IMG/VR virus record: IMGVR_UViG_3300031688_000024
Coordinates: 1 to 52,972 of that record
Source of the DNA: a virus
Taxonomy: Duplodnaviria > Caudoviricetes
Strand: one strand, 5' to 3'
Length of the DNA: 52,972 nucleotides
Part shown: piece by piece, positions 9,052 through 41,069 of the stretch
Layout of the letters: each line of letters opens with the position of its first letter
Numbering within the stretch: position 1 is the stretch's first letter
Translations under genes and position numbers: made by a program
The notes under the pieces: generated by a model
The model's database searches: none
What the model was told of the DNA's origin: nothing
Seen by the model: only the letters and a program-made list of their open reading frames with translations

Positions 9052-9153
9052 TTTTCTATGTTAATTTAATGTCAATAATGTTTATTATGTATATAAATAT
9101 ATTTGTAGTACCAAAAAAGTCCACTACAAGTCAATAAATATCTATTTTTTTTA

Positions 9154-9843: not shown

Positions 9844-9923
9844 ACCATATAGTGTTAACTCTTATATAAATATATAACTACAAAGAAAAAATAGTGTATG
9901 GTTGTAAATGAAAAAAGAGGGGG

Positions 9924-10361: not shown

Positions 10362-10521
10362 ATATGTTCATAATTCTACTGTCGTTTATTGTTACTTCTT
10401 TAAGTATAATAAACGTTATCTAATGAGTCAAAGAATATGACATAATAAAGTTCGTTTGGGTGTGTCGTTAATTTTTAGTATATTTATATATTAAATAAAT
10501 GTACTAAAACAAACTAAATTT

Positions 10522-19361: not shown

Positions 19362-19436
19362 TATAATGTTTTTTAACTATTAATAGTTTATGTTGTATAT
19401 ACCTCTATAAATATTAAAGAAATAGTAAAATGGTAA

Positions 19437-22657: not shown

Positions 22658-24685
22658 ATGGATACAGAATACGATGAACAAGGTGGAGGTAGAAAACTCC
22701 CAATAAAAAGACAAAAGAATGATTCTCGTACCCCAGTACTTGATAACTTTTCTAGGGACCTTATTAAATTAGCGGAATTAGGTAAAATAGACCCCGTTAT
22801 TGGTCGGGATTTAGAAATTCGTAGAGTAGCTCAAATTCTTTCGAGACGTAAGAAAAATAACCCAATCATTATCGGGGAACCTGGTTGTGGTAAAACTGCA
22901 TTAGTGGAGGGGTTAGCAATAAAAATTCATGAGGGTGATTGTCCTAAGAACCTTGCGGATAAACGTATTGTATCTTTAGACTTAACATCGATAGTTGCCG
23001 GTACTAAATACCGTGGACAGTTCGAAGAACGTCTAAAAGCAATTTTAGAGGAATTACAGGATAACGATAATGTTATTGTATTCATCGATGAAATTCATAC
23101 AATTATAGGTACCGGTAACTCATCAGGTTCGTTAGATGCGTCTAATATAATTAAACCAGCACTATCTCGTGGTGAGATTCAATGTATTGGTGCTACAACA
23201 TTAGATGAGTATCGTGAGAACATCGAAAAGGATGGGGCATTAGAGCGTAGATTCCAAAAGGTCATGGTGGAAGCGGCGACAATGGAAGAGACACTAATAA
23301 TCCTTAATAACATTAAAGGGAAATATGAGGACCACCATAAAGTGGTTTATACTGATGAGTCATTAAAGGCTTGTGTCGTGTTAGCCGAGAGATATATCAC
23401 CGACCGTGAATTTCCTGATAAGGCTATCGACATTTTAGATGAGGTCGGGGCTAAGGCTCAGGTTGAGGTTAAACTCCCTGAATTTTTGGAGGAATTGAAG
23501 GAAGAGGTCCATGTTATTAAGAAAAAGAAGTTAGACGTGGTTAAGAACCAAAACTATGAAATCGCAGCGGAACTTCGTGACCAAGAGAAGAAACTACTCA
23601 GTAAATTAGATACCGAGAAGACTGAGTGGGAACGTAAACAAAACGAAGATAGGACTAAAATCTATGAGGAGGATGTTTATCAAATAGTCTCAGACATGAC
23701 TAAAATACCAATTACGCGTTTAGATAGTAATGAGTCGGAATCTCTTTTATCGTTAGAAGATAATATTAAACAGAACGTAATTGGTCAGGACGAAGCAGTT
23801 AAGAAAATAGCAAAGGCTATCCGTAGAAATCGAGTGGGAATTAAAGAACCAAACAGACCGATTGGGTCGTTTATATTCTTAGGGTCCACTGGAGTTGGTA
23901 AGACTCACTTAGCAAAGACACTGGCTCGTGAAATATTCGGCGATGAGTCGGCGATGATTCGTGTCGATATGTCGGAGTTAATGGAGAAACATTCTGTCTC
24001 TCGTTTAGTGGGTTCACCCCCAGGATATGTAGGCCACGATGAAGGTGGTCAGTTAACCGAACAGGTTAAGAATAAACCATATTCGGTAATACTTTTCGAT
24101 GAGATTGAGAAAGCACACAAAGACGTGTTTAACATATTACTTCAAGTATTAGATGAGGGTCATTTAACTGACGGATTAGGACGTAAAATTAACTTTAAGA
24201 ATACTCTTATCATTATGACGTCAAACGTAGGAGCACGTAAGCTTCAGGACTTTGGAACGGGAGTTGGATTCACCACAGATTCTTTGGCAACACAACGTGA
24301 GGAATTAACGAAAGGTATCATACAGAAAGCATTGAAAAATGAATTTGCACCTGAATTCCTAAATAGATTAGACGATATAATTGTTTTTAAATCATTAGAG
24401 AAAAAACACGTATCTGATATCGTAAAAATTGAATTAGGAAAATTAACTAAAAGGTTAGTTGAACGAGGTTATCGAATTACGATGGGACCATCAATTGCCG
24501 AACTAATTTCAGATAAAGGGTATGACAGTAAGTTCGGGGCACGTCCTATTCGTAGAGCGATTCAGGACTACTTAGAAGACTTTATCTCAGAAGAGGTACT
24601 TAGACAAAACATAGTGGAAGGTAAAAAATATTCCCTTAAGGTTACTAAAGGTAGTGATAAGATTATTGTGACTGAAAAGTCATAA
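22658..24685 (+). CDS. clpC: ClpC-type AAA+ unfoldase lacking the N-terminal Clp repeat domain
   Basis: Two Walker A motifs ([16 protein letters not shown]), UVR-like M-domain [12 protein letters not shown], ClpP-docking loop GVGF. Confidence 0.9.
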
Positions 24686-35209: not shown

Positions 35210-35457
35210 TGGATAACAGTAGTAATACATTTGACAATCAAAACCAATATGAGCATAATACTACGTTGGATGTTAATTTTAGATACATGATACCTAAGGG
35301 TACTAAAACTATTGAGATTATCGCTGAGATTGAAAACATTGCCGGTGTAGACATATTTTATACAAAATCAGGTAGGTCATTCGCTGAACATCAATTGGAC
35401 GGTGTCGAAGTGACATATAATTACATAATGAAAACATGGCCCGAAGTCGATGCATAG
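35209..35457 (+). CDS. Hypothetical protein
   Basis: 82 aa, coupled by TAATG. Confidence 0.6.
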   Translation: MDNSSNTFDNQNQYEHNTTLDVNFRYMIPKGTKTIEIIAEIENIAGVDIFYTKSGRSFAEHQLDGVEVTYNYIMKTWPEVDA

Positions 35458-35610
35458 ATTAGGGAACGAAGCCCACGGATTACGGGTTTATTTAATATTA
35501 AACCTCAACCACTTTCGAGTTTGTTGAATTGTTAAATAGATTGTCGCGGATGTCGGTCGAATCGTTGGTCGGATTAGTTGGTAACTCTAAGGTGTTTAAA
35601 AGTTACAAAT

Positions 35611-35684
35611 ACCCCTATAGCTCAGTTGGTTAGAGCATCTCAATAACATTGAGAATGACGTAAGTTCGATTCTTACTGGTGGTT
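35611..35684 (+). tRNA. Atypical tRNA, anticodon AAC (Val?) on a Thr-like body
   Basis: Intact D and T arms; stem TCTCA-ATAACAT-TGAGA; one acceptor mismatch. Confidence 0.65.
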
Positions 35685-35842
35685 CTAAAAAATAAATGAA
35701 AAGGGTTAGACTATCTCATTTATTTGAGTATCTTTGTAGAGTCAAAGACGACAAAACAAAAATAAATTAAAAAAAAGGGTACTAAACATATTTTTTATAT
35801 ATGTATATACAGTATCCGACGTAACGGGATAATAATATAATT

Positions 35843-35992
35843 ATGAAAACAAATACTAACATACAACTCTTATCGAATCAGATGTTCCATTTATGGACTG
35901 CGATTACTGTCTCGGTATGTGCGTTTGGCTTTGGACAGGACAGTTATAATGTTAGAGAACCGAAACGATTAATTGGATATTTAAAATGGTGA
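35843..35992 (+). CDS. Putative attenuator leader peptide (49 aa, all 20 amino acids)
   Basis: MKTNTNIQLLSNQMFHLWTAITVSVCAFGFGQDSYNVREPKRLIGYLKW; between the promoter at 35729 and the terminator at 36027. Confidence 0.7.
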   Translation: MKTNTNIQLLSNQMFHLWTAITVSVCAFGFGQDSYNVREPKRLIGYLKW

Positions 35993-36026
35993 TATAGACT
36001 AAACACATATATACTCAGTATTAGAT

Positions 36027-36058
36027 AATCCAATTTCCAAAAGAAGTTGGATTTTTTT
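36027..36058 (+). terminator. Attenuator terminator upstream of the main tRNA array
   Basis: AATCCAATTTC-caaaa-GAAGTTGGATT followed by a T run; the 5' arm can alternatively pair with 35971-35984. Confidence 0.8.
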
Positions 36059-36105
36059 GTACCCAATAATTCGGATTCTAACGAATTAAAATAATAGAAA
36101 CAAAT

Positions 36106-36178
36106 GGTGTTCGTAGTTTAATGGCGAGAATGGTGGATTGTGATTCCACAGATGGGAGTTCGATTCTCCTCTTACACC
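36106..36178 (+). tRNA. tRNA-His(GTG)
   Basis: G-1/C73, loop TTGTGAT; two acceptor mismatches. Confidence 0.85.
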
Positions 36179-36209
36179 CTAAATGGTTGTTTTTATACCA
36201 TATTAAATA

Positions 36210-36224
36210 GTTCATTGACATATT
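36210..36224 (+). promoter_or_regulatory. boxA-like antitermination element
   Basis: GTTCATTGACATATT; exact repeat at 39218-39232, variant GTTCTTTGAAA at 51424. Confidence 0.6.
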
Positions 36225-36237
36225 GGATAAAATTAAA

Positions 36238-36324
36238 GGAAGGTTGACAGAGTCTGGCTTATTGTACTAGTCTTGAAAACTAGAGGGTGTAAAAACTCCA
36301 TGGGTTCGAATCCCATACCTTCCT
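36238..36324 (+). tRNA. tRNA-Ser(TGA), second copy
   Basis: Class II, loop CTTGAAA. Confidence 0.9.
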
Positions 36325-36330
36325 CTACAT

Positions 36331-36402
36331 TAACTTGTGGTATAACGGTGATTACATTTGACTTTGACTCAAATAATGGAGGTTCGATTCCTCCCAAGTT
36401 AA
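36331..36402 (+). tRNA. tRNA-Gln(TTG)
   Basis: Loop CTTTGAC, U1-A72. Confidence 0.9.
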
Positions 36403-36410
36403 CAATAATA

Positions 36411-36482
36411 CGGGTAGTATTCTCGGGGTGAGAAGCTCGCCTTGGACGCGAGAGGTGGTAGGTTCGACTCCTATCTACCCGA
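36411..36482 (+). tRNA. tRNA-Pro(TGG)
   Basis: Loop CTTGGAC, C1-G72, A73. Confidence 0.9.
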
Positions 36483-36490
36483 CTAAAGTA

Positions 36491-36562
36491 GCCCTTGTAG
36501 CAAACCGGCGTAGGCAATCGACTTTTAATCGATGGGGTCAGGTTCGACTCCTGACAGGGGCA
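36491..36562 (+). tRNA. tRNA-Lys(TTT)
   Basis: Loop CTTTTAA. Confidence 0.9.
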
Positions 36563-36605
36563 CAAATTGGAATGGTTATGCCAATTAAAGTATATGTAAC
36601 CACCT

Positions 36606-36676
36606 GTTTCGTTGGCGTAATGGTAGCGTATTTCTTTTACATGGAAATGGCAGTGGTTCGATTCCACTACGAAATA
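36606..36676 (+). tRNA. tRNA-Val(TAC)
   Basis: Loop TTTACAT. Confidence 0.88.
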
Positions 36677-36775
36677 CAAAAATAGTTGGGTGAAAGTGAT
36701 TCATTACTACAATAGTGATAACAACACACGATATTCTATGGGTATTAGGAATTGTAGTTCCAATCGATATAGTTT

Positions 36776-36847
36776 TTGGCGTTAGTGGAATGGTGACCAA
36801 GGCCGGCGATAAGCCGGCAGGAGCAAGTTCGATTCTTGTACGTTGAC
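36776..36847 (+). tRNA. Atypical Ile(GAT)-like tRNA with shortened anticodon loop
   Basis: GCCGGC-GATAA-GCCGGC, no U33; G-U-rich acceptor stem; good T arm. Confidence 0.55.
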
Positions 36848-36856
36848 AAAATAAAT

Positions 36857-36937
36857 GGGATATGAAAGTCGTTCGGATACGGCAGCGAGACTGTAAATCT
36901 CGTCCTTCGGGGAGTGGTTCGAGTCCACCATAACCCA
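36857..36937 (+). tRNA. tRNA-Tyr(GTA)
   Basis: Loop CTGTAAA, variable arm with TTCG loop. Confidence 0.9.
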
Positions 36938-37016
36938 CAATTACATAAAATTTGTGTTTAGGATATGTATTTAGATTATATATATTAATATATGACTTAA
37001 CATATAACGTAAATCA

Positions 37017-37493
37017 ATGAACACAGTAATTAACAAGTCAAAATTATCAATTTCAATACTCTCAAATTTAATGGCATTTCACATACCGGTTATATTATGG
37101 TATTCGAGTGGGGGTTTTGAAGAATCGATAAGTAGTTACCATTTAACAGATGCGAAATGGGCATTATTTATAACATTAATAATTACCTCTTTTGGGTTTT
37201 TTATTGGGAAAGTTGAGTATAGACTCTCAGGGGTTCTTTTAATTCTAATTGCGATTTTTAATATTGAATATGAGTTAATTCATAATATAACTGCCGGTTT
37301 GTTTTTTGCGTATACTGCGGTTTTAATGTTCATGGATAAGAGGTTTTGGTTTTTATCGATACCGATATTCATATCGTCATTAACGATACCGTTTATGTCG
37401 TTATACCCCTTTGAGATGATTTCATTATTATGTATTATATCGTTTAATGTTCTATATATTTTAAGATATGTTAGAATTATTAACATAAGATAA
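37017..37493 (+). CDS. Polytopic membrane protein within the tRNA array
   Basis: 158 aa with several hydrophobic segments; SISSY and IHNITA motifs. Confidence 0.75.
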   Translation: MNTVINKSKLSISILSNLMAFHIPVILWYSSGGFEESISSYHLTDAKWALFITLIITSFGFFIGKVEYRLSGVLLILIAIFNIEYELIHNITAGLFFAYTAVLMFMDKRFWFLSIPIFISSLTIPFMSLYPFEMISLLCIISFNVLYILRYVRIINIR

Positions 37494-37511
37494 TACTATT
37501 CAAATTTTAAC

Positions 37512-37584
37512 GGTACTGTAGCTCAAATGGTAGAGCACTTGGTTGAAGCCCAAGGTGTAGTTGGTTCGATACCAATCAGTACCA
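37512..37584 (+). tRNA. tRNA-Phe(GAA)
   Basis: Loop TTGAAGC. Confidence 0.92.
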
Positions 37585-37592
37585 CAATTAAA

Positions 37593-37673
37593 TTACGATG
37601 CAGGTGCATTAACTGTCTCATGAGCAGTATCGGTAGATATACCTAATGGAGGTTCGAGTCCTCTAATCGTAAC
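37593..37673 (+). tRNA. Atypical CAT-anticodon tRNA with reduced D arm and long variable arm
   Basis: TTACGAT/ATCGTAA acceptor, ACTGT-CTCATGA-GCAGT, ~19-nt variable region, GGAGG-TTCGAGT-CCTCT. Confidence 0.65.
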
Positions 37674-37676
37674 TAT

Positions 37677-37748
37677 GGACCTGTAGCTCAGAGGAAGAGC
37701 ATTCGCCTGTTAAGTGAAATGTCGAGATTTCGAAATTCTCCGGGTCCT
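37677..37748 (+). tRNA. tRNA-Asn(GTT)
   Basis: Loop CTGTTAA. Confidence 0.9.
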
Positions 37749-37817
37749 CAAATTGATTACAAAGAATGAATGATACGAGCCTTGAAAGTTCGAAAGGAGT
37801 CAGGTTGTAATCAACTT

Positions 37818-37890
37818 CGGAGTGTAGCTCAATCGGTAGAGCATTGTCCTGATACGACAAAGGTAGTTGGTTCGATACCAACCATTCCGA
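37818..37890 (+). tRNA. tRNA-Ile(GAT)
   Basis: Loop CTGATAC; Pro-like C1-G72 acceptor. Confidence 0.88.
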
Positions 37891-37904
37891 CTTTACTTAC
37901 AAAA

Positions 37905-37988
37905 GGAAGATAAACTATGATGGTGACTAGGATATCCTGCTAAGATAATCGTACTTAACGGTATTCGGTTCGATTCCGATTTCTTCCT
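37905..37988 (+). tRNA. tRNA-Ser(GCT)
   Basis: Class II, loop CTGCTAA. Confidence 0.88.
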
Positions 37989-37994
37989 CAAAAT

Positions 37995-38066
37995 GCCAAT
38001 ATAGCTCAGAGGTAGAGCACCTCTTTCATACGGAGTAGGTCGATGGTTCAATTCCGTCTATTGGTA
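37995..38066 (+). tRNA. tRNA-Met(CAT) elongator (or Ile2)
   Basis: Loop TTCATAC. Confidence 0.88.
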
Positions 38067-38070
38067 CAAA

Positions 38071-38122
38071 AGGGGGGTGAGACAATGGTGGTCAACGTAG
38101 GTTCGAATCCTTCCATTCCCCT
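38071..38122 (+). ncRNA. tRNA-like element without an anticodon arm
   Basis: 9-bp AGGGGGGTG/CATTCCCCT stem, D-like arm GAC-AATGGTG-GTC, 3-nt linker, T arm GTAGG-TTCGAAT-CCTTC. Confidence 0.7.
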
Positions 38123-38219
38123 GAATTAACGCCCAAAGGGTGATTGAATTGGTCAGAGATGAAATTCTTGCAAAGACGTTACCTAAAGATGTCCTGTCAA
38201 CCTACGGGGTTGGCTATAT

Positions 38220-38299
38220 GCCCGTGTGATGAAATTGGTAAACATATTCGGTTTAAGCCCGAAGGCTACGGCTTGTAGGTTCGAATCCTATCACGGGTA
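38220..38299 (+). tRNA. tRNA-Leu(TAA), second copy
   Basis: Class II, loop TTTAAGC. Confidence 0.9.
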
Positions 38300-38304
38300 C
38301 AATT

Positions 38305-38376
38305 ACCTTTATAGTTTAATTGGAAGAACTTATCGCTACGAACGATAGAACGGGGGTTCGACTCCCTCTAAAGGTA
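38305..38376 (+). tRNA. tRNA-Arg(ACG)
   Basis: Loop CTACGAA. Confidence 0.9.
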
Positions 38377-38382
38377 CAAATT

Positions 38383-38454
38383 ACCTCCATAGTTTAATTG
38401 GAAGAATAAAACGCTTCTAACGTTTTGGTACTGGTTCGAGTCCAGTTGGGGGTT
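38383..38454 (+). tRNA. tRNA-Arg(TCT), second copy
   Basis: Loop CTTCTAA; 5' half nearly identical to the Arg(ACG) gene. Confidence 0.9.
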
Positions 38455-38459
38455 CAAAA

Positions 38460-38528
38460 GCGTCATAGGTTAAGGTAACCAAACGGATTCCAAACTCGTA
38501 GGACAAAGTTCGATTCTTTGATGACGCG
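38460..38528 (+). tRNA. tRNA-Trp(CCA)
   Basis: Loop TTCCAAA, G73; imperfect anticodon stem. Confidence 0.85.
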
Positions 38529-38563
38529 CAAATTAAGAATATAAATCATTAACAATTTAAATC

Positions 38564-39073
38564 ATGAAAAATCGTTATGCTAAAACACTTGTGGTGGATT
38601 CAAGTTACACGGCACGTAGTATTATAACCACTGAAAGAGCATTTGTAATATCCTATAAGGGTAATGCAGATATATTAGTAGAGTATCCTGAAACGTTTGG
38701 ACTTGTTAATCCTAAGTTAGTCATTAACAAACCGTCAATAATTCGGGTTTACACTTACGTAAGGAAGGAATTTGATAAAGTACCATTAACACGTGAAAAC
38801 ATATTCAAACGTGATGGATACGAATGTGTGTATTGTGGTAATGATAATAGAAAGACATTAACATTGGACCATGTTGTCCCACAATCTAAAGGGGGACCTA
38901 ACAAATGGGATAACTTGGTCACGGCATGTAAACGATGTAATAATGAAAAGGCGGATTTAACGTTAAAGGAATATGGGAAACCTATTCCCAAACCACAGAG
39001 ACCACATTATTTAATGTTATTAAAACAGACAACATATATACCAGATGAGTGGAAACCATACTTAGGTATGTAA
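38564..39073 (+). CDS. HNH endonuclease (McrA-like)
   Basis: RENIFKRDGYECVYCG...TLDHVVPQSKGG...WDNLVTACKRCNNEK. Confidence 0.95.
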   Translation: MKNRYAKTLVVDSSYTARSIITTERAFVISYKGNADILVEYPETFGLVNPKLVINKPSIIRVYTYVRKEFDKVPLTRENIFKRDGYECVYCGNDNRKTLTLDHVVPQSKGGPNKWDNLVTACKRCNNEKADLTLKEYGKPIPKPQRPHYLMLLKQTTYIPDEWKPYLGM

Positions 39074-39074
39074 T

Positions 39075-39144
39075 GAGTGAGTTGTTCTTGGAGAACGGTT
39101 GGTCTGCAAAATCAACAGAGTGAGTTCGATTCTCACCTTACTCT
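39075..39144 (+). tRNA. tRNA-Cys(GCA)
   Basis: Loop CTGCAAA, U73. Confidence 0.88.
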
Positions 39145-39244
39145 CAAATTAAGTTAATGAGGTAGATTAGGATACGTGAAATAAAATATCTACCTTTACC
39201 AAGTAGAAAGTACTACTGTTCATTGACATATTAAAAGATAAATT

Positions 39245-39318
39245 ACCCTTATGGCGGAATTGGTATACGCGGCCGTCTTAGACACGGTGTATTGTAGGTT
39301 CGAGTCCTACTAAGGGTA
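39245..39318 (+). tRNA. tRNA-Leu(TAG) with short variable region
   Basis: Leu-type D arm GCGGAATTGGTATACGC, loop CTTAGAC, only 5 nt between anticodon and T stems. Confidence 0.85.
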
Positions 39319-39385
39319 CATAATATAAGGTTAGACGTTCGTTGGAGAACTTAAAAGAGATACAAAACCTCATTCTAACTTAACC

Positions 39386-39457
39386 GCCTCCAAAGCATAA
39401 ATGGTAATGTACTCGGTTTGTACCCGAAAGAACGGAGTTCGATTCTTCGTGGAGGCT
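39386..39457 (+). tRNA. tRNA-Thr(TGT), second copy
   Basis: Loop TTTGTAC. Confidence 0.88.
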
Positions 39458-39458
39458 C

Positions 39459-39652
39459 AAATTAAATGACGACTATGGTGTAACCCCATGGTATATGAAT
39501 CTCAGATAACTAGGTGAATTTCGAAACAGAGACTAGGGCGAGTAATATTTGATATAATCCATTCAACCATGTGCACATAAAGGGAAAATGTAGAAAGTCG
39601 AATTACGAGTGAAATCGGCATGATGTATAAATGGATACAAAAAATTTAATTT
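39459..39652 (+). ncRNA. Candidate pseudoknotted ncRNA (~190 nt) between tRNA-Thr and tRNA-Gly
   Basis: Closing AAATTAAAT/ATTTAATTT, CGACT/AGTCG, CATGGT/ACCATG, crossing ATCCATT/AATGGAT. Confidence 0.55.
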
Positions 39653-39655
39653 AAT

Positions 39656-39727
39656 GCGAATGTAGCATAGTGGTTAATGTTCTAGGCTTCCACCCTTGAG
39701 ACGAGAGTTCGATTCTCTCCATTCGCT
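39656..39727 (+). tRNA. tRNA-Gly(TCC)
   Basis: Loop CTTCCAC, U73. Confidence 0.88.
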
Positions 39728-39859
39728 CCGCCGTTGATTGATTCCTGGTAGTACATCAACAGTCATTAGGGTATTCGGGAAAATCCCATGAATGATACGT
39801 CATTAACGCTCAGTTTAATGGTAGGTACGTTGTTAACATCATGTTAAAACCTACAACCT

Positions 39860-39931
39860 GTTCCCATCGTCTAACGGTCAGGACCTATGGTTTTCATCCA
39901 TAAAATCGGAGTTCGATTCTCCGTGGGAATA
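39860..39931 (+). tRNA. tRNA-Glu(TTC)
   Basis: Loop TTTTCAT. Confidence 0.92.
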
Positions 39932-39937
39932 CAATTT

Positions 39938-40010
39938 GGCCCTGTAGCTAAACTGGCTTAGCACCTCCCTTGCACGGAGAAGTATGTGGGTTCGAGTCCC
40001 ATCAGGCCCA
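39938..40010 (+). tRNA. tRNA-Ala(TGC) lacking G3:U70
   Basis: Loop CTTGCAC; acceptor GGCCCTG/CAGGCCC gives a C3xC70 mismatch. Confidence 0.85.
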
Positions 40011-40083
40011 CAATGATAAAACACCCACCTTTGGTTGGTTTTTGTTAAGGTTTTTAAGGTTGAACCACTAATCAACCTTAAAT

Positions 40084-40155
40084 AGCTCCATAGTTAAACG
40101 GCTATAATGTCGCCCTGTCACGGCGAAGTTCGGAGTTCGATTCTCCGTGGAGCTG
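40084..40155 (+). tRNA. tRNA-Asp(GTC)
   Basis: Loop CTGTCAC, G73. Confidence 0.92.
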
Positions 40156-40160
40156 CACAT

Positions 40161-40235
40161 CGCGAGGGGGAGGTAAGGTATCTCACTGGTCTCATAAGCC
40201 GGAATAGAAGTAGGTTCAATTCCTACCCTACGCTA
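40161..40235 (+). tRNA. Initiator-like tRNA-fMet(CAT)
   Basis: 5' CGCG with unpaired C1, loop CTCATAA, T loop TTCAATT. Confidence 0.8.
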
Positions 40236-40344
40236 CTAAGACCACTGTGGGTCTCTAATTACACAGAGAACTTTTGGGGTAAAAGTCATGTAGGTAATAA
40301 AATTTATACTATCTTAGCATAAATATTTTTACAAAACCCCACAC

Positions 40345-40416
40345 GGTCCGTTAACTCAGAGGTAGAGTAGTTCGCTCATAACGAAAAGGTCATAGGTTCA
40401 AATCCTGTACGGACCA
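40345..40416 (+). tRNA. tRNA CAT (Ile2 or Met)
   Basis: Loop CTCATAA, paired 1-72. Confidence 0.88.
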
Positions 40417-40489
40417 CAGTAATTTTATCCAATATGTGAAGAACCGGCAATACTTGTCAAACTTCCTTAAATTAAAACAAAAATACAAT

Positions 40490-40738
40490 ATGAGTAAAGA
40501 AAACGAAAGTATGAAACTAAAGAGAGGTTTTTGGGCCGGATTATTATCATTTGTGATAGCCAAAGTAGCACATCTATTAATAACATTCTCATTTGGTTTA
40601 TTTATCGGATTGATATCGGGAGGGGAAATAAGTGAGGATATGTGGACATTCATTAGAGCGATTGACCACCCAATTACAGGTCTTATCTTTTTAATATTCG
40701 CGACTAGGTACGTATATAAATTAATTACAGTACGGTAA
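40490..40738 (+). CDS. Small membrane protein
   Basis: ATG at 40490 with A-rich upstream sequence, inside ORF 40436..40738; hydrophobic helices. Confidence 0.65.
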   Translation: MSKENESMKLKRGFWAGLLSFVIAKVAHLLITFSFGLFIGLISGGEISEDMWTFIRAIDHPITGLIFLIFATRYVYKLITVR

Positions 40739-40757
40739 ACGTAAAATAAGTAAGGGG

Positions 40758-40915
40758 TACTTAAACAGACATCCATGGAGTCTATAAATTAAATGGGGGT
40801 AATAGAACGGACATCCTGAATGCCGCTCTCTGAGGAATAAAGACAGGTGATAGAGTCTCCCAGTAATTTGACTTTTTTTAATGTGGTAAGACACTAATGT
40901 GTTTGTTTGAAAGTA
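40758..40915 (+). ncRNA. Candidate rod-like ncRNA (~155 nt)
   Basis: TTAAACAGACAT/GTGTTTGTTTGA, GGAGTC/GACTTT, AAATTA/TAATTT and TGGGG/TCCCA nested helices. Confidence 0.5.
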
Positions 40916-40962
40916 AATAAAACCGTTAAAATCTAAGTTTGGTAAATCTCGCTAAACTATAC

Positions 40963-41035
40963 TGTCCTATGGTGTAACTGGCAACACGTCTCGTTTTGGT
41001 CGAGAAGAGTCGAGGTTCGAGCCCTTGTGGGACAA
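40963..41035 (+). tRNA. tRNA-Gln(TTG), second copy
   Basis: Loop TTTTGGT, U1-A72. Confidence 0.9.
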
Positions 41036-41069
41036 CAATAAAATTAATTAAAACAGTTAAAACTAAAAG

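What the first reader, a model, noticed from the sequence alone, without database searches (positions are those of the whole stretch)
35729..36058. Pan-amino-acid attenuator gating the phage tRNA array
Seen: a TATCTTTG promoter (35729), then a 49-codon ORF (35843-35992) that has used all 20 amino acids by codon 40 and 31 different codons overall. An intrinsic terminator (36027-36058) follows, then about 28 tRNA genes. Leader codons 43-47 (AATTGGA-TATTTAA, 35971-35984) are complementary to 36021-36035 (TTAGATA-a-TCCAATT). This 14-bp helix with one bulge takes up the terminator's 5' arm, so the two structures are mutually exclusive. Known: trp/his-type attenuators use this logic but with runs of one amino acid. 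Inference: a ribosome reaching the end of the leader masks the antiterminator and transcription stops; a stall at any earlier codon frees it and allows read-through. The phage would then make its full tRNA set on demand when any host tRNA is uncharged or cleaved, for example by anticodon-nuclease defences (PrrC, PARIS/AriB, retron effectors). I know of no described attenuator of this kind.
Basis: partly seen in the sequence, partly recalled or inferred. Interest (0 to 1): 0.93.

Follow-up and report, generated by a model that had tools for sequence, protein, structure and literature searches.

The report
Translation-sensing attenuator heading phage tRNA array
A short translated reading frame, whose last codons can pair with and disable a transcription stop signal, sits at the head of the tRNA gene cluster in a group of uncultured marine phages, and probably lets the phage make more tRNA when translation runs slowly.

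Summary
The window has a 49-codon ORF (35843-35992) with all 20 amino acids by codon 40, an intrinsic terminator (36027-36058) and a competing helix. ARAGORN finds 26 tRNA genes downstream, not about 28.

Relatives decide the case. I found 12 related metagenomic or viral loci, giving 8 further distinct DNA versions. Each has the same layout:
- A 45-51-codon ORF.
- A stop codon 57-60 nt before the T run.
- A long hairpin running from the last codons to the terminator's 5' arm.
- In the 11 loci scanned for tRNA genes, a tRNA array starting within about 100 nt.

The ORF is translated. All its indels are multiples of three, and pN/pS is 0.20 over the first 21 codons. Its C-terminal residues are not conserved, but the pairing is. 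Own ORF ends and terminator arms pair better than swapped ones (0 of 265 derangements as good). On a structure-fitted alignment, 9 of 24 pairs show changes on both sides.

I read it as a ribosome-dependent transcription attenuator (confidence 0.58). This is a new variant of a known kind; the closest known is bmrB-bmrCD.

The "pan-amino-acid by design" idea is not shown. All 15 distinct peptides keep 19-20 kinds, but shared ancestry explains most of that. Six lack Cys. There is no wet evidence.

The parts
35729..35736 (+). Host-type promoter -7 box (TATCTTTG), with TTA 20 nt upstream
   Evidence: The octamer occurs 13 times in the window, mostly just ahead of ORF or tRNA starts. It is kept 112-118 nt ahead of the leader ATG in 5 of 8 variant classes. 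That this is the Bacteroidota consensus is recalled, not tested.
35791..35809 (+). Second, phage-type promoter-like block (T run followed by an alternating TA-rich block), about 35 nt ahead of the ATG
   Evidence: Conserved in 8 of 8 variant classes. The motif has 11 matches with up to 2 mismatches in the window against 2.8 expected, and 0 of 100 shuffles reach that. It also precedes the head-protease gene and other minus-strand ORF starts. Promoter function is inferred.
35843..35992 (+). Leader ORF, 49 codons plus stop
   Evidence: Homologues of 45-51 aa. All gaps within the ORF are multiples of three, and pN/pS is 0.20 over the first 21 codons.
35971..35996 (+). 5' strand of the antiterminator hairpin. 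It covers the last 7 codons, the stop codon and 4 nt beyond
   Evidence: The peptide here is not conserved, but the pairing is.
36010..36035 (+). 3' strand of the antiterminator hairpin. Its last 7-9 nt are the 5' arm of the terminator
   Evidence: Covariation.
36027..36058 (+). Intrinsic terminator: 11-pair stem, 5-nt loop, T run
   Evidence: On the alignment 66 of 66 cells are paired, with one pair changed on both sides.
36068..36087 (+). Small conserved hairpin in the 48-nt spacer before tRNA-His. Role unknown
   Evidence: RNAalifold pairs 239-269 of A2, with changes on both sides at several pairs. Also present in G001.
36107..41036 (+). tRNA array of 26 genes covering all 20 amino acids, interrupted by ORFs including an HNH endonuclease

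Best explanation
The element is a ribosome-dependent transcription attenuator at the head of the phage tRNA array.

Proposed mechanism.
1. Transcripts start at one or two promoters just upstream and carry a translated ORF of 45-51 codons.
2. The last seven or so codons and the stop codon form the 5' strand of a long hairpin.
3. The 3' strand of that hairpin includes most of the 5' arm of an intrinsic terminator, so hairpin and terminator cannot both form.
4. If the ribosome keeps up with RNA polymerase and is on the last codons or the stop codon when the terminator region emerges, the hairpin cannot form. The terminator folds and transcription stops before the first tRNA.
5. If the ribosome lags or never loads, the hairpin forms first and polymerase reads on into the tRNA genes.

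The phage would thus tie tRNA output to how fast translation is running, without specificity for one amino acid.

Shown: the anatomy, its conservation, translation of the ORF and co-variation of the helices. Inferred: the direction of the switch, its dependence on ribosome position, and its physiological role.
For: 1. Same layout everywhere.
- The window and 8 further distinct DNA versions come from 12 related loci (L002-L012 and G001).
- Each has an ORF of 45-51 codons with 57-60 nt from the stop to the T run.
- The window and all 11 loci scanned for tRNA genes (L002, L003, L005-L012, L016) have a dense tRNA array starting about 30-100 nt after the T run (distances worked out).
- In L005, L006, L011, L012 and L016 no tRNA gene lies in the 2.4-7 kb held upstream.

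2. The ORF is translated.
- Every gap inside it is a multiple of three (lengths 3 and 9).
- Pooled pN/pS is 0.20 over 21 sequence pairs for codons 1-21.

3. Selection at the ORF's 3' end acts on RNA, not on the peptide.
- The C-terminal residues differ between variants.
- Yet the minimum-energy fold of the nascent RNA is the same long hairpin in 8 of 8 sequences (-9.7 to -15.2 kcal/mol, against -7.1 to -12.9 for the terminators).
- The same holds in G001 (-19.9 against -11.9).

4. Co-variation.
- Each ORF end pairs better with its own terminator arm than with those of other variants. Only 6 of 720 permutations, and 0 of 265 derangements, reach the observed energy sum.
- The arm change A to G in L008, L010 and G001 is met by U to C in the ORF end.
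- The arm change C to U in L008 is met by G to A in both the ORF end and the terminator's 3' arm.
- On the model-fitted alignment, 9 of 24 pairs have changes on both sides. None of 500 shuffles reaches that, and slid controls give 1-6.

5. No promoter-like site lies in the 48 nt between the terminator and tRNA-His in the window. Only about 30 nt separate them in L010. Read-through is therefore needed to express the first tRNAs.

6. A contig from an RNA library bridges the terminator in an L007-like relative, covering 35964-36109. This is a weak hint only.

7. The mechanism has precedent. The 53-codon bmrB leader works this way for bmrCD, through general slowing of translation (PMC4191407, passages read).
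Against: - There are only 7 distinct sequences in the switch region.
- On the unbiased MAFFT alignment with one fixed register, co-variation is not significant: 2 pairs changed on both sides, reached by 186 of 500 shuffles. The stronger counts come from an alignment fitted to the structure.
- In the window alone the helix is in the 3.5-5.7% tail of chance.
- There are no data on transcript ends, ribosome occupancy or regulation. The RNA-library contig cannot exclude DNA carry-over.
- No conserved pause hairpin or anti-antiterminator was found. Whether the unknown host couples translation to transcription tightly enough is also unknown.
- In G001 a promoter-like site (TTG, 20 nt, TATCTTTA) lies between the terminator and the first tRNA. 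That array may not depend on read-through.
- The first 18 residues are under purifying selection. The model does not need this, and it hints at a function for the peptide itself.
- Five tRNA genes in the window lie upstream of the element.
Confidence: 0.58

Rival explanations
1. Pan-amino-acid sensor by design. The leader is selected to hold a codon for nearly every amino acid. Loss of any one charged tRNA, through starvation or a host anticodon nuclease, then stalls the ribosome and switches on the whole phage tRNA set.
For: - All 15 distinct leader peptides hold 19 or 20 of the 20 kinds in 45-51 residues: 8 hold 20 and 7 hold 19.
- Windows of that length in this phage's proteins hold about 16 kinds on average. 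P(at least 19) is 2-6% and P(20) is 0.2-0.4%.
- Column shuffling of the 14-peptide alignment reaches the observed mean coverage in 0.98% of 5000 trials.
- One member lost the internal Met at the usual place and has one elsewhere.
- G001 shares only 17 residues with the window's peptide and still has all 20 kinds.
- The array downstream covers all 20 amino acids.
Against: - The peptides are homologous, so coverage is largely inherited. The column shuffle ignores the tree.
- With inherited residues fixed, G001's full coverage has probability 0.15.
- Six of 15 peptides lack Cys.
- The L002 group lacks Asp although its array has a tRNA-Asp gene.
- Glu and Pro occur once each in the window, at codons 39-40, too near the helix for a stalled ribosome to leave it fully free (inference).
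- Strong conservation of the order of the first 18 residues is not needed for coverage.
- The statistic was chosen after seeing the data.
- Codon usage is not unusual: 12% of the background windows score as low as the leader or lower.
Confidence: 0.2
2. An ordinary small phage gene with its own terminator. The peptide is the functional product and the hairpin is a 3' stability element or a by-product. The tRNA array is expressed by leak-through, by a phage antitermination factor or polymerase, or from other promoters.
For: - The N-terminal two fifths of the peptide are under purifying selection (pN/pS 0.20).
- G001 has a promoter-like site after the terminator.
- At 45-51 codons the ORF is long for a classical leader.
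- There are no runs of one codon.
- In the window alone the helix is within the 3.5-5.7% tail of chance.
Against: - The C-terminal peptide is not conserved, while its RNA pairing with the terminator arm is kept in 9 of 9 versions.
- The stop codon always lies inside the hairpin's 5' strand, 57-60 nt from the T run.
- Own ORF ends and terminator arms pair better than swapped ones, and there are three-way changes.
- The peptide has no Pfam, PHROG or Atlas relative, and no structural hint.
- There is no room for a promoter before the first tRNA in L010.
Confidence: 0.17
3. An attenuator whose signal is not ribosome position as such. One option is a nascent-peptide arrest programmed by the conserved N-terminal residues and the Arg-Glu-Pro-Lys block. 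Another is a trans factor (a protein, or a tRNA as in T-boxes) that binds the hairpin.
For: - Conservation of the first 18 residues and of the Arg/Ile-Glu/Asp-Pro-Lys block just ahead of the helix in 14 of 15 peptides. G001 lacks the block.
- The alternative structures are close in energy. A modest push could decide between them.
Against: - No Rfam family, T-box included, matches 35400-36300 apart from the two tRNAs.
- The apical part of the hairpin differs completely in G001, which argues against a conserved ligand site.
- G001 lacks the Pro-Lys block yet keeps the switch.
- No known arrest motif was recognised (recalled knowledge only, not tested).
Confidence: 0.08

Closest known systems
bmrB leader of the Bacillus subtilis bmrCD operon (ribosome-mediated transcription attenuation; PMC4191407, passages read)
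   Same: - A long leader ORF (53 codons there, 45-51 here) without runs of one amino acid.
- An intrinsic terminator with an overlapping antiterminator.
- Efficient translation favours termination, and slowed translation favours read-through. In bmrB the slowing comes from ribosome-targeting antibiotics, and the paper tested rare codons by codon optimisation.
   Different: - There the terminator lies inside the ORF and the regulated genes encode a drug exporter. Here the terminator lies about 35 nt after the stop codon and the regulated genes are tRNAs of a phage.
- In bmrB a start-codon mutant lowered expression. The anatomy here predicts the opposite, because no anti-antiterminator was found.
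- No sequence relationship.
Amino-acid-specific leader-peptide attenuators (trpL, hisL, pheL and the like; recalled textbook knowledge, and mentioned in PMC2965389, passages read)
   Same: - A leader ORF whose ribosome position chooses between antiterminator and terminator.
- A ribosome at the stop codon masks the antiterminator's 5' strand.
   Different: - No run of regulatory codons.
- The leader is 2-3 times longer.
- No conserved 1:2 pause or anti-antiterminator hairpin.
- It controls tRNA genes, not biosynthetic enzymes.
uORF and leader sensors of general translation stress. The ermC leader is described as sensing a global slowdown in translation (PMC2965389). The topAI-yjhQ uORF (PMC12121999) and msrD leader (PMC10314930) were seen in a search listing and abstract start only.
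   Same: Sensing is not tied to one amino acid. The read-out is ribosome progress on a short ORF.
   Different: As I recall, and did not read here, those act on translation initiation or Rho-dependent termination, and respond to antibiotics through specific nascent-peptide contexts. None controls tRNA genes or is phage-borne, as far as my searches show.
T-box leaders (recalled)
   Same: An antiterminator-terminator switch that ties the tRNA charging state to expression of translation-related genes.
   Different: T-boxes bind tRNA directly and need no ORF. No T-box match was found here, and the ORF here is translated.

Membership tests
Ribosome-mediated (leader-peptide) transcription attenuator | Short translated ORF in the leader of the regulated genes | tested here: met
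   ORF of 45-51 codons in 9 of 9 DNA versions. All gaps are multiples of three, and pN/pS is 0.20. Translation is inferred from evolution, not observed.
Ribosome-mediated (leader-peptide) transcription attenuator | Intrinsic terminator between the leader ORF and the regulated genes | tested here: met
   Hairpin plus T run in every version. 66 of 66 cells are paired.
Ribosome-mediated (leader-peptide) transcription attenuator | Antiterminator that shares bases with the terminator, so the two exclude each other | tested here: met
   The hairpin's 3' strand holds 7-9 nt of the terminator's 5' arm. It is the minimum-energy fold of the nascent RNA in 9 of 9 versions. Co-variation, but not significant on the unfitted alignment.
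Ribosome-mediated (leader-peptide) transcription attenuator | A ribosome at the end of the ORF covers the antiterminator's 5' strand | tested here: met
   In the six variants analysed, the 5' strand's pairing with the terminator-arm stretch ends within 2 nt of the end of the stop codon, or 5 nt past it in L008. In G001 the stop codon lies inside the hairpin's apical stem. Footprint size is recalled; occupancy was not observed.
Ribosome-mediated (leader-peptide) transcription attenuator | Read-through responds to ribosome stalling | not testable with these tools
   No transcript-end or ribosome data. Only one RNA-library contig bridges the terminator.
Amino-acid-specific attenuators (trpL/hisL class) | Run or cluster of codons for the regulating amino acid | tested here: not met
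   There are 31 different codons, no amino acid occurs more than 5 times, and no tandem run beyond Leu-Leu.
Amino-acid-specific attenuators (trpL/hisL class) | Upstream 1:2 hairpin (pause or anti-antiterminator) | tested here: not met
   Folds of the leader up to the stop codon show no common pairing of the 5' strand with upstream ORF sequence in 7 variants.
General translation-slowdown attenuators (bmrB type) | Long leader ORF without amino-acid specificity, with an overlapping terminator and antiterminator | tested here: met
   compared with passages of PMC4191407. The terminator is placed differently: after the ORF here, inside it there.
General translation-slowdown attenuators (bmrB type) | Rare codons in the leader that slow translation | tested here: not met
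   The leader's codon-usage index is 0.666 against a background of 0.739 +/- 0.063. 12% of windows are as low. Relatives range from 1.7% to 57%.
T-box or other Rfam leader families | Match to the family's covariance model | tested here: not met
   cmscan of 35400-36300 at E up to 1 gave only the two tRNAs and chance-level hits.

The most novel reading that the evidence does not exclude
The leader is a pan-tRNA alarm. Its near-complete amino-acid coverage (19-20 kinds in all 15 known versions) is selected, so that loss of any one charged tRNA stalls the ribosome, frees the antiterminator and switches on the phage's complete tRNA set. The loss could come from starvation, host shut-off or an anticodon-nuclease defence. 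This would be a built-in, demand-driven counter-defence and supply circuit.
Probability: 0.2. Interest if true: 0.9.

Novelty: new variant of a known kind. Interest (0 to 1): 0.72.

Why it matters
Large phages often carry tRNA arrays. These are discussed as codon-usage aids, as replacements when host tRNA decays, and recently as counters to tRNA-cutting defences (recalled). How the arrays are regulated is largely unknown.

A conserved translation-sensing attenuator at the head of the array would be a feedback loop between translation capacity and tRNA supply, carried by the virus itself. My searches of the held library found no description of such an element.

It would also extend leader-peptide attenuation to phages with Bacteroidota-type promoters and no Shine-Dalgarno-like leader (promoter type recalled). 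It gives a compact, testable switch of about 330 nt.

If the coverage of all amino acids proves to be selected, it would be a new sensing logic: any tRNA rather than one.

Tried and rejected
Searches that found nothing useful.
- DNA search and protein search of the GenBank phage collection gave only tRNA matches and chance hits. No cultured relative was found; one search matched only an endolysin domain.
- The neighbouring 147-aa protein has no relative in viral contigs.
- Pfam and PHROGs gave nothing for the leader peptide or most neighbours. The ESM Atlas gave nothing.
- Rfam gave no family for the leader.
- Two top hits of the HMMER search (P0001, P0006) are repeat proteins matched by composition, and I dropped them.
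- The G001 peptide found only itself.
- The first terminator pattern I wrote fitted only the L008 form and found nothing. The corrected pattern found G001.

Tests that gave no support.
- Co-variation on the plain MAFFT alignment was not significant, because the helix register shifts by 1-2 nt between variants.
- Rare-codon enrichment of the leader was not found.
- A conserved anti-antiterminator or pause hairpin was not found. An RNAalifold helix between the Phe-Gly-Phe and Arg-Glu-Pro-Lys codons has no change on both sides.
- The match between amino acids missing from the leader and tRNAs missing from the array could not be tested, because the contigs are cut. The one clear case, L002 and Asp, goes against it.

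Other checks.
- Sequencing runs: all four laid runs are contigs, so transcript ends and levels cannot be read. Parts without cover mean nothing.
- In Cellulophaga phage phi4:1 the first tRNA is also directly preceded by a terminator-like hairpin and a structured leader with a small ORF. The minimum-energy fold shows no competing helix, so I do not claim the same switch there.
- I recalled that attenuator-like leaders were once proposed for E. coli tRNA-Phe genes. One search found no paper in the library to check this, so it stays unverified.

Limits.
- Supplements of papers were not opened.
The DNA around six further peptide variants (P0003, P0004, P0007, P0010, P0011, P0014) could therefore not be fetched.
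Full report
WHAT IS IN THE WINDOW

The window is a 52,972-base viral record estimated to be about 16% complete. It carries head and packaging genes: protease, portal and large terminase. ARAGORN finds 31 tRNA genes.

At 35843-35992 there is a 49-codon ORF. It uses all 20 amino acids by codon 40 and 31 different codons.

An intrinsic terminator follows: an 11-pair stem at 36027-36053, a 5-nt loop and a T run at 36052-36058. tRNA-His starts 48 nt later. It is the first of 26 tRNA genes that reach 41036 and cover all 20 amino acids. Five more tRNA genes lie upstream, between 28851 and 35685.

It is the base of a longer hairpin, 35971-35996 with 36010-35. That hairpin is the minimum-energy fold of the RNA that exists before the terminator's 3' arm is made: -12.5 kcal/mol, against -11.3 for the terminator. 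Depending on where the 3' end is set, the best fold of the whole stretch is the terminator or the antiterminator. The two are close in energy.

IS IT MORE THAN CHANCE IN THE WINDOW ALONE?

Only moderately.
- Full amino-acid coverage within 40 residues occurs in 19 of 12,021 windows of the phage's own long ORFs. Within 49 residues it occurs in 62 of 11,634.
- A stretch that pairs as well with the terminator arm turns up in 5.7% of 1000 shuffles and in 3.5% of 1050 other places in the window.
- Both features were picked after looking at the data.

RELATIVES

A full HMMER search of 1.84 billion representative proteins found five real small homologues and two repeat-protein false hits. A profile search added more.

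This gave L002 (viral), L003-L012 (metagenomic) and G001, a 120-kb viral record. With the window they make 9 distinct DNA versions in 8 variant classes.

Every one has:
- an ORF of 45-51 codons;
- 57-60 nt from the stop codon to the T run;
- the terminator.

The window and each of the 11 loci scanned also have a dense tRNA array that starts about 30-100 nt after the T run. In five loci with 2.4-7 kb held upstream, no tRNA gene precedes the element. In most relatives it therefore truly heads the array.

THE ORF IS TRANSLATED

All gaps inside the ORF in the DNA alignment are multiples of three (lengths 3 and 9). Over the ungapped first 21 codons, pooled pN/pS is 0.20.

The first 18 residues are almost invariant across 14 of the 15 distinct peptides. 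The middle varies in length. An Arg-Glu-Pro-Lys block is kept in 14 of 15. The last seven or so residues are not conserved at all.

THE RNA SWITCH IS CONSERVED WHERE THE PEPTIDE IS NOT

In every version the last codons plus the stop codon pair with the stretch that ends in the terminator's 5' arm.
- The nascent-RNA fold is the same long hairpin in 8 of 8 sequences and in G001. G001's apical part has a wholly different sequence.
- Each ORF end pairs better with its own arm than with the arms of other variants. The own-pair energy sum is reached by 6 of 720 permutations. These are the identity and exchanges among three variants with nearly identical arms. It is reached by none of 265 derangements.
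- Where the terminator's 5' arm has G instead of A (L008, L010, G001), the ORF end has C instead of U. The terminator's 3' arm keeps U, giving a wobble pair.
- Where L008 has U instead of C in the arm, both partners, the ORF end and the 3' arm, have A instead of G. Such three-way change is what an antiterminator-terminator pair predicts.

The formal counts are mixed.
- On the plain MAFFT alignment with one fixed register: 78.8% of cells pair, against 26-44% when partners are slid. Only 2 pairs change on both sides, which shuffles often reach.
- On an alignment fitted with a covariance model: 9 of 24 pairs change on both sides. None of 500 shuffles reaches that, and slid controls give 1-6. That alignment leans towards the structure.
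- The terminator pairs in 66 of 66 cells, with one double change.

PROMOTERS

It is kept 112-118 nt ahead of the leader in 5 of 8 classes.

A second block, a T run followed by an alternating TA-rich motif about 35 nt ahead of the ATG, is kept in 8 of 8 classes. It is over-represented in the window (11 matches against 2.8 expected). It also sits ahead of the head-protease gene and other structural-region ORFs. I read it as a phage-specific, perhaps late, promoter. This is inference.

Between the terminator and the first tRNA there is no such site in the window, and in L010 no room for one. G001 does have a promoter-like site there.

MECHANISM I COMMIT TO

This is a ribosome-dependent attenuator. 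A ribosome on the last codons or the stop codon covers the hairpin's 5' strand, so the terminator folds and transcription ends before tRNA-His. A lagging or absent ribosome leaves the strand free. The hairpin then forms as soon as its 3' strand is made, the terminator cannot form, and the array is transcribed.

Because no upstream partner for the 5' strand is conserved, the default without translation should be read-through. This differs from trp-type leaders. The signal would be general translation speed.

An RNA-library contig from an L007-like relative spans the terminator and ends at the tRNA's 5' end. That fits read-through, but contigs cannot prove transcription.

THE PAN-AMINO-ACID IDEA

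All 15 distinct peptides hold 19 or 20 kinds: 8 hold 20, 6 lack Cys and one lacks Asp. Windows of that length in this phage average about 16 kinds. This is striking, but the peptides share ancestry.
- A column shuffle gives p of about 0.01 and ignores the tree.
- For G001, which shares 17 residues with the window's peptide, full coverage has probability 0.15 once inherited residues are fixed.
- The L002 group lacks Asp although its array has tRNA-Asp.
- Codon usage is ordinary.

I keep the idea at about 0.2.

COMPARISON WITH WHAT IS KNOWN

By mechanism the closest case is bmrB-bmrCD of B. subtilis. It has a 53-codon leader without amino-acid runs, and slowed translation favours the antiterminator (PMC4191407, passages). 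The ermC leader is described as sensing a global slowdown in translation (PMC2965389, passages).

The element is not a member of the amino-acid-specific class: it has no codon run and no 1:2 hairpin. It matches no Rfam family.

Three full-text searches found no report of a leader-peptide attenuator in front of a phage tRNA array. The library lacks most subscription journals, so this is not proof of absence.

VERDICT

The attenuator reading is well supported by comparative anatomy but untested at the bench. The pan-amino-acid design is open. It is a new variant of a known kind, and of clear interest for how phages manage their tRNA supply.

Noticed in passing
window 36068-36087; L008, L002 and G001 at the same place: A small hairpin in the spacer between the terminator and the first tRNA is kept, with changes on both sides of several pairs (for example the closing C-G becomes a different pair in L008). 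It could be a processing or pause signal.
   Followed up: partly
window 35813-35831, and the same place in 7 of 8 variant classes (alignment A6): Just after the conserved TA-rich promoter-like block, most variants seem to have a short inverted repeat of unrelated sequence. This suggests a 5'-terminal stem-loop on the leader transcript. It was seen by eye and not folded.
   Followed up: no
window 9863-9877(-), 9090-9104(-), 19396-19410(-), 10476-10490(+), 35795-35809(+): A recurrent TA-rich 15-mer lies 20-40 nt ahead of start codons, including the head maturation protease gene. It is a candidate phage-specific, perhaps late, promoter (11 matches against 2.8 expected).
   Followed up: partly
window 36776-36847; L007 1341-1413: A tRNA-Tyr with the unusual anticodon ATA sits next to a normal tRNA-Tyr (GTA). 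The window also has a tRNA-Val with anticodon AAC at 35611-35685.
   Followed up: no
L008 3360-3429; L010 1121-1196; L016 3002-3075 and 11714-11798: Odd tRNA calls in relatives. One has anticodon CTA (amber-reading, called Pyl by ARAGORN). Others have 4-letter or 2-letter anticodon calls. These may be suppressor or frameshift-type tRNAs, or pseudogenes.
   Followed up: no
window 38564-39073: An HNH endonuclease gene (Pfam HNH_5, E 1.9e-16) is inserted inside the tRNA array. Another ORF (37017-37493, no family) also interrupts it.
   Followed up: no
L018 (Cellulophaga phage phi4:1) 3060-3200: In this cultured phage the first tRNA of a 23-gene array is also directly preceded by a strong terminator-like hairpin with a T run, and by a stably folded leader of about 100 nt holding a small ORF (z-score -6.1). 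No competing helix appears in the best fold.
   Followed up: partly
L016 (G001), reverse strand, about 60-95 nt after the T run: A promoter-like site (TTG, 20 nt, TATCTTTA) lies between the attenuator's terminator and the first tRNA. This phage may have a second, ungated entry to the array.
   Followed up: no
window 22658-24685: A 675-aa protein matches a phage ATP-dependent protease family very strongly (phrog_4871, E 1.2e-243). This is an uncommon phage cargo gene.
   Followed up: no
window 35964-36109 (run X24): A 156-nt contig from a metatranscriptome library covers the ORF end, the terminator and the spacer, and stops at the 5' end of tRNA-His. Its 10 differences fit the L007-like relative.
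   Followed up: partly
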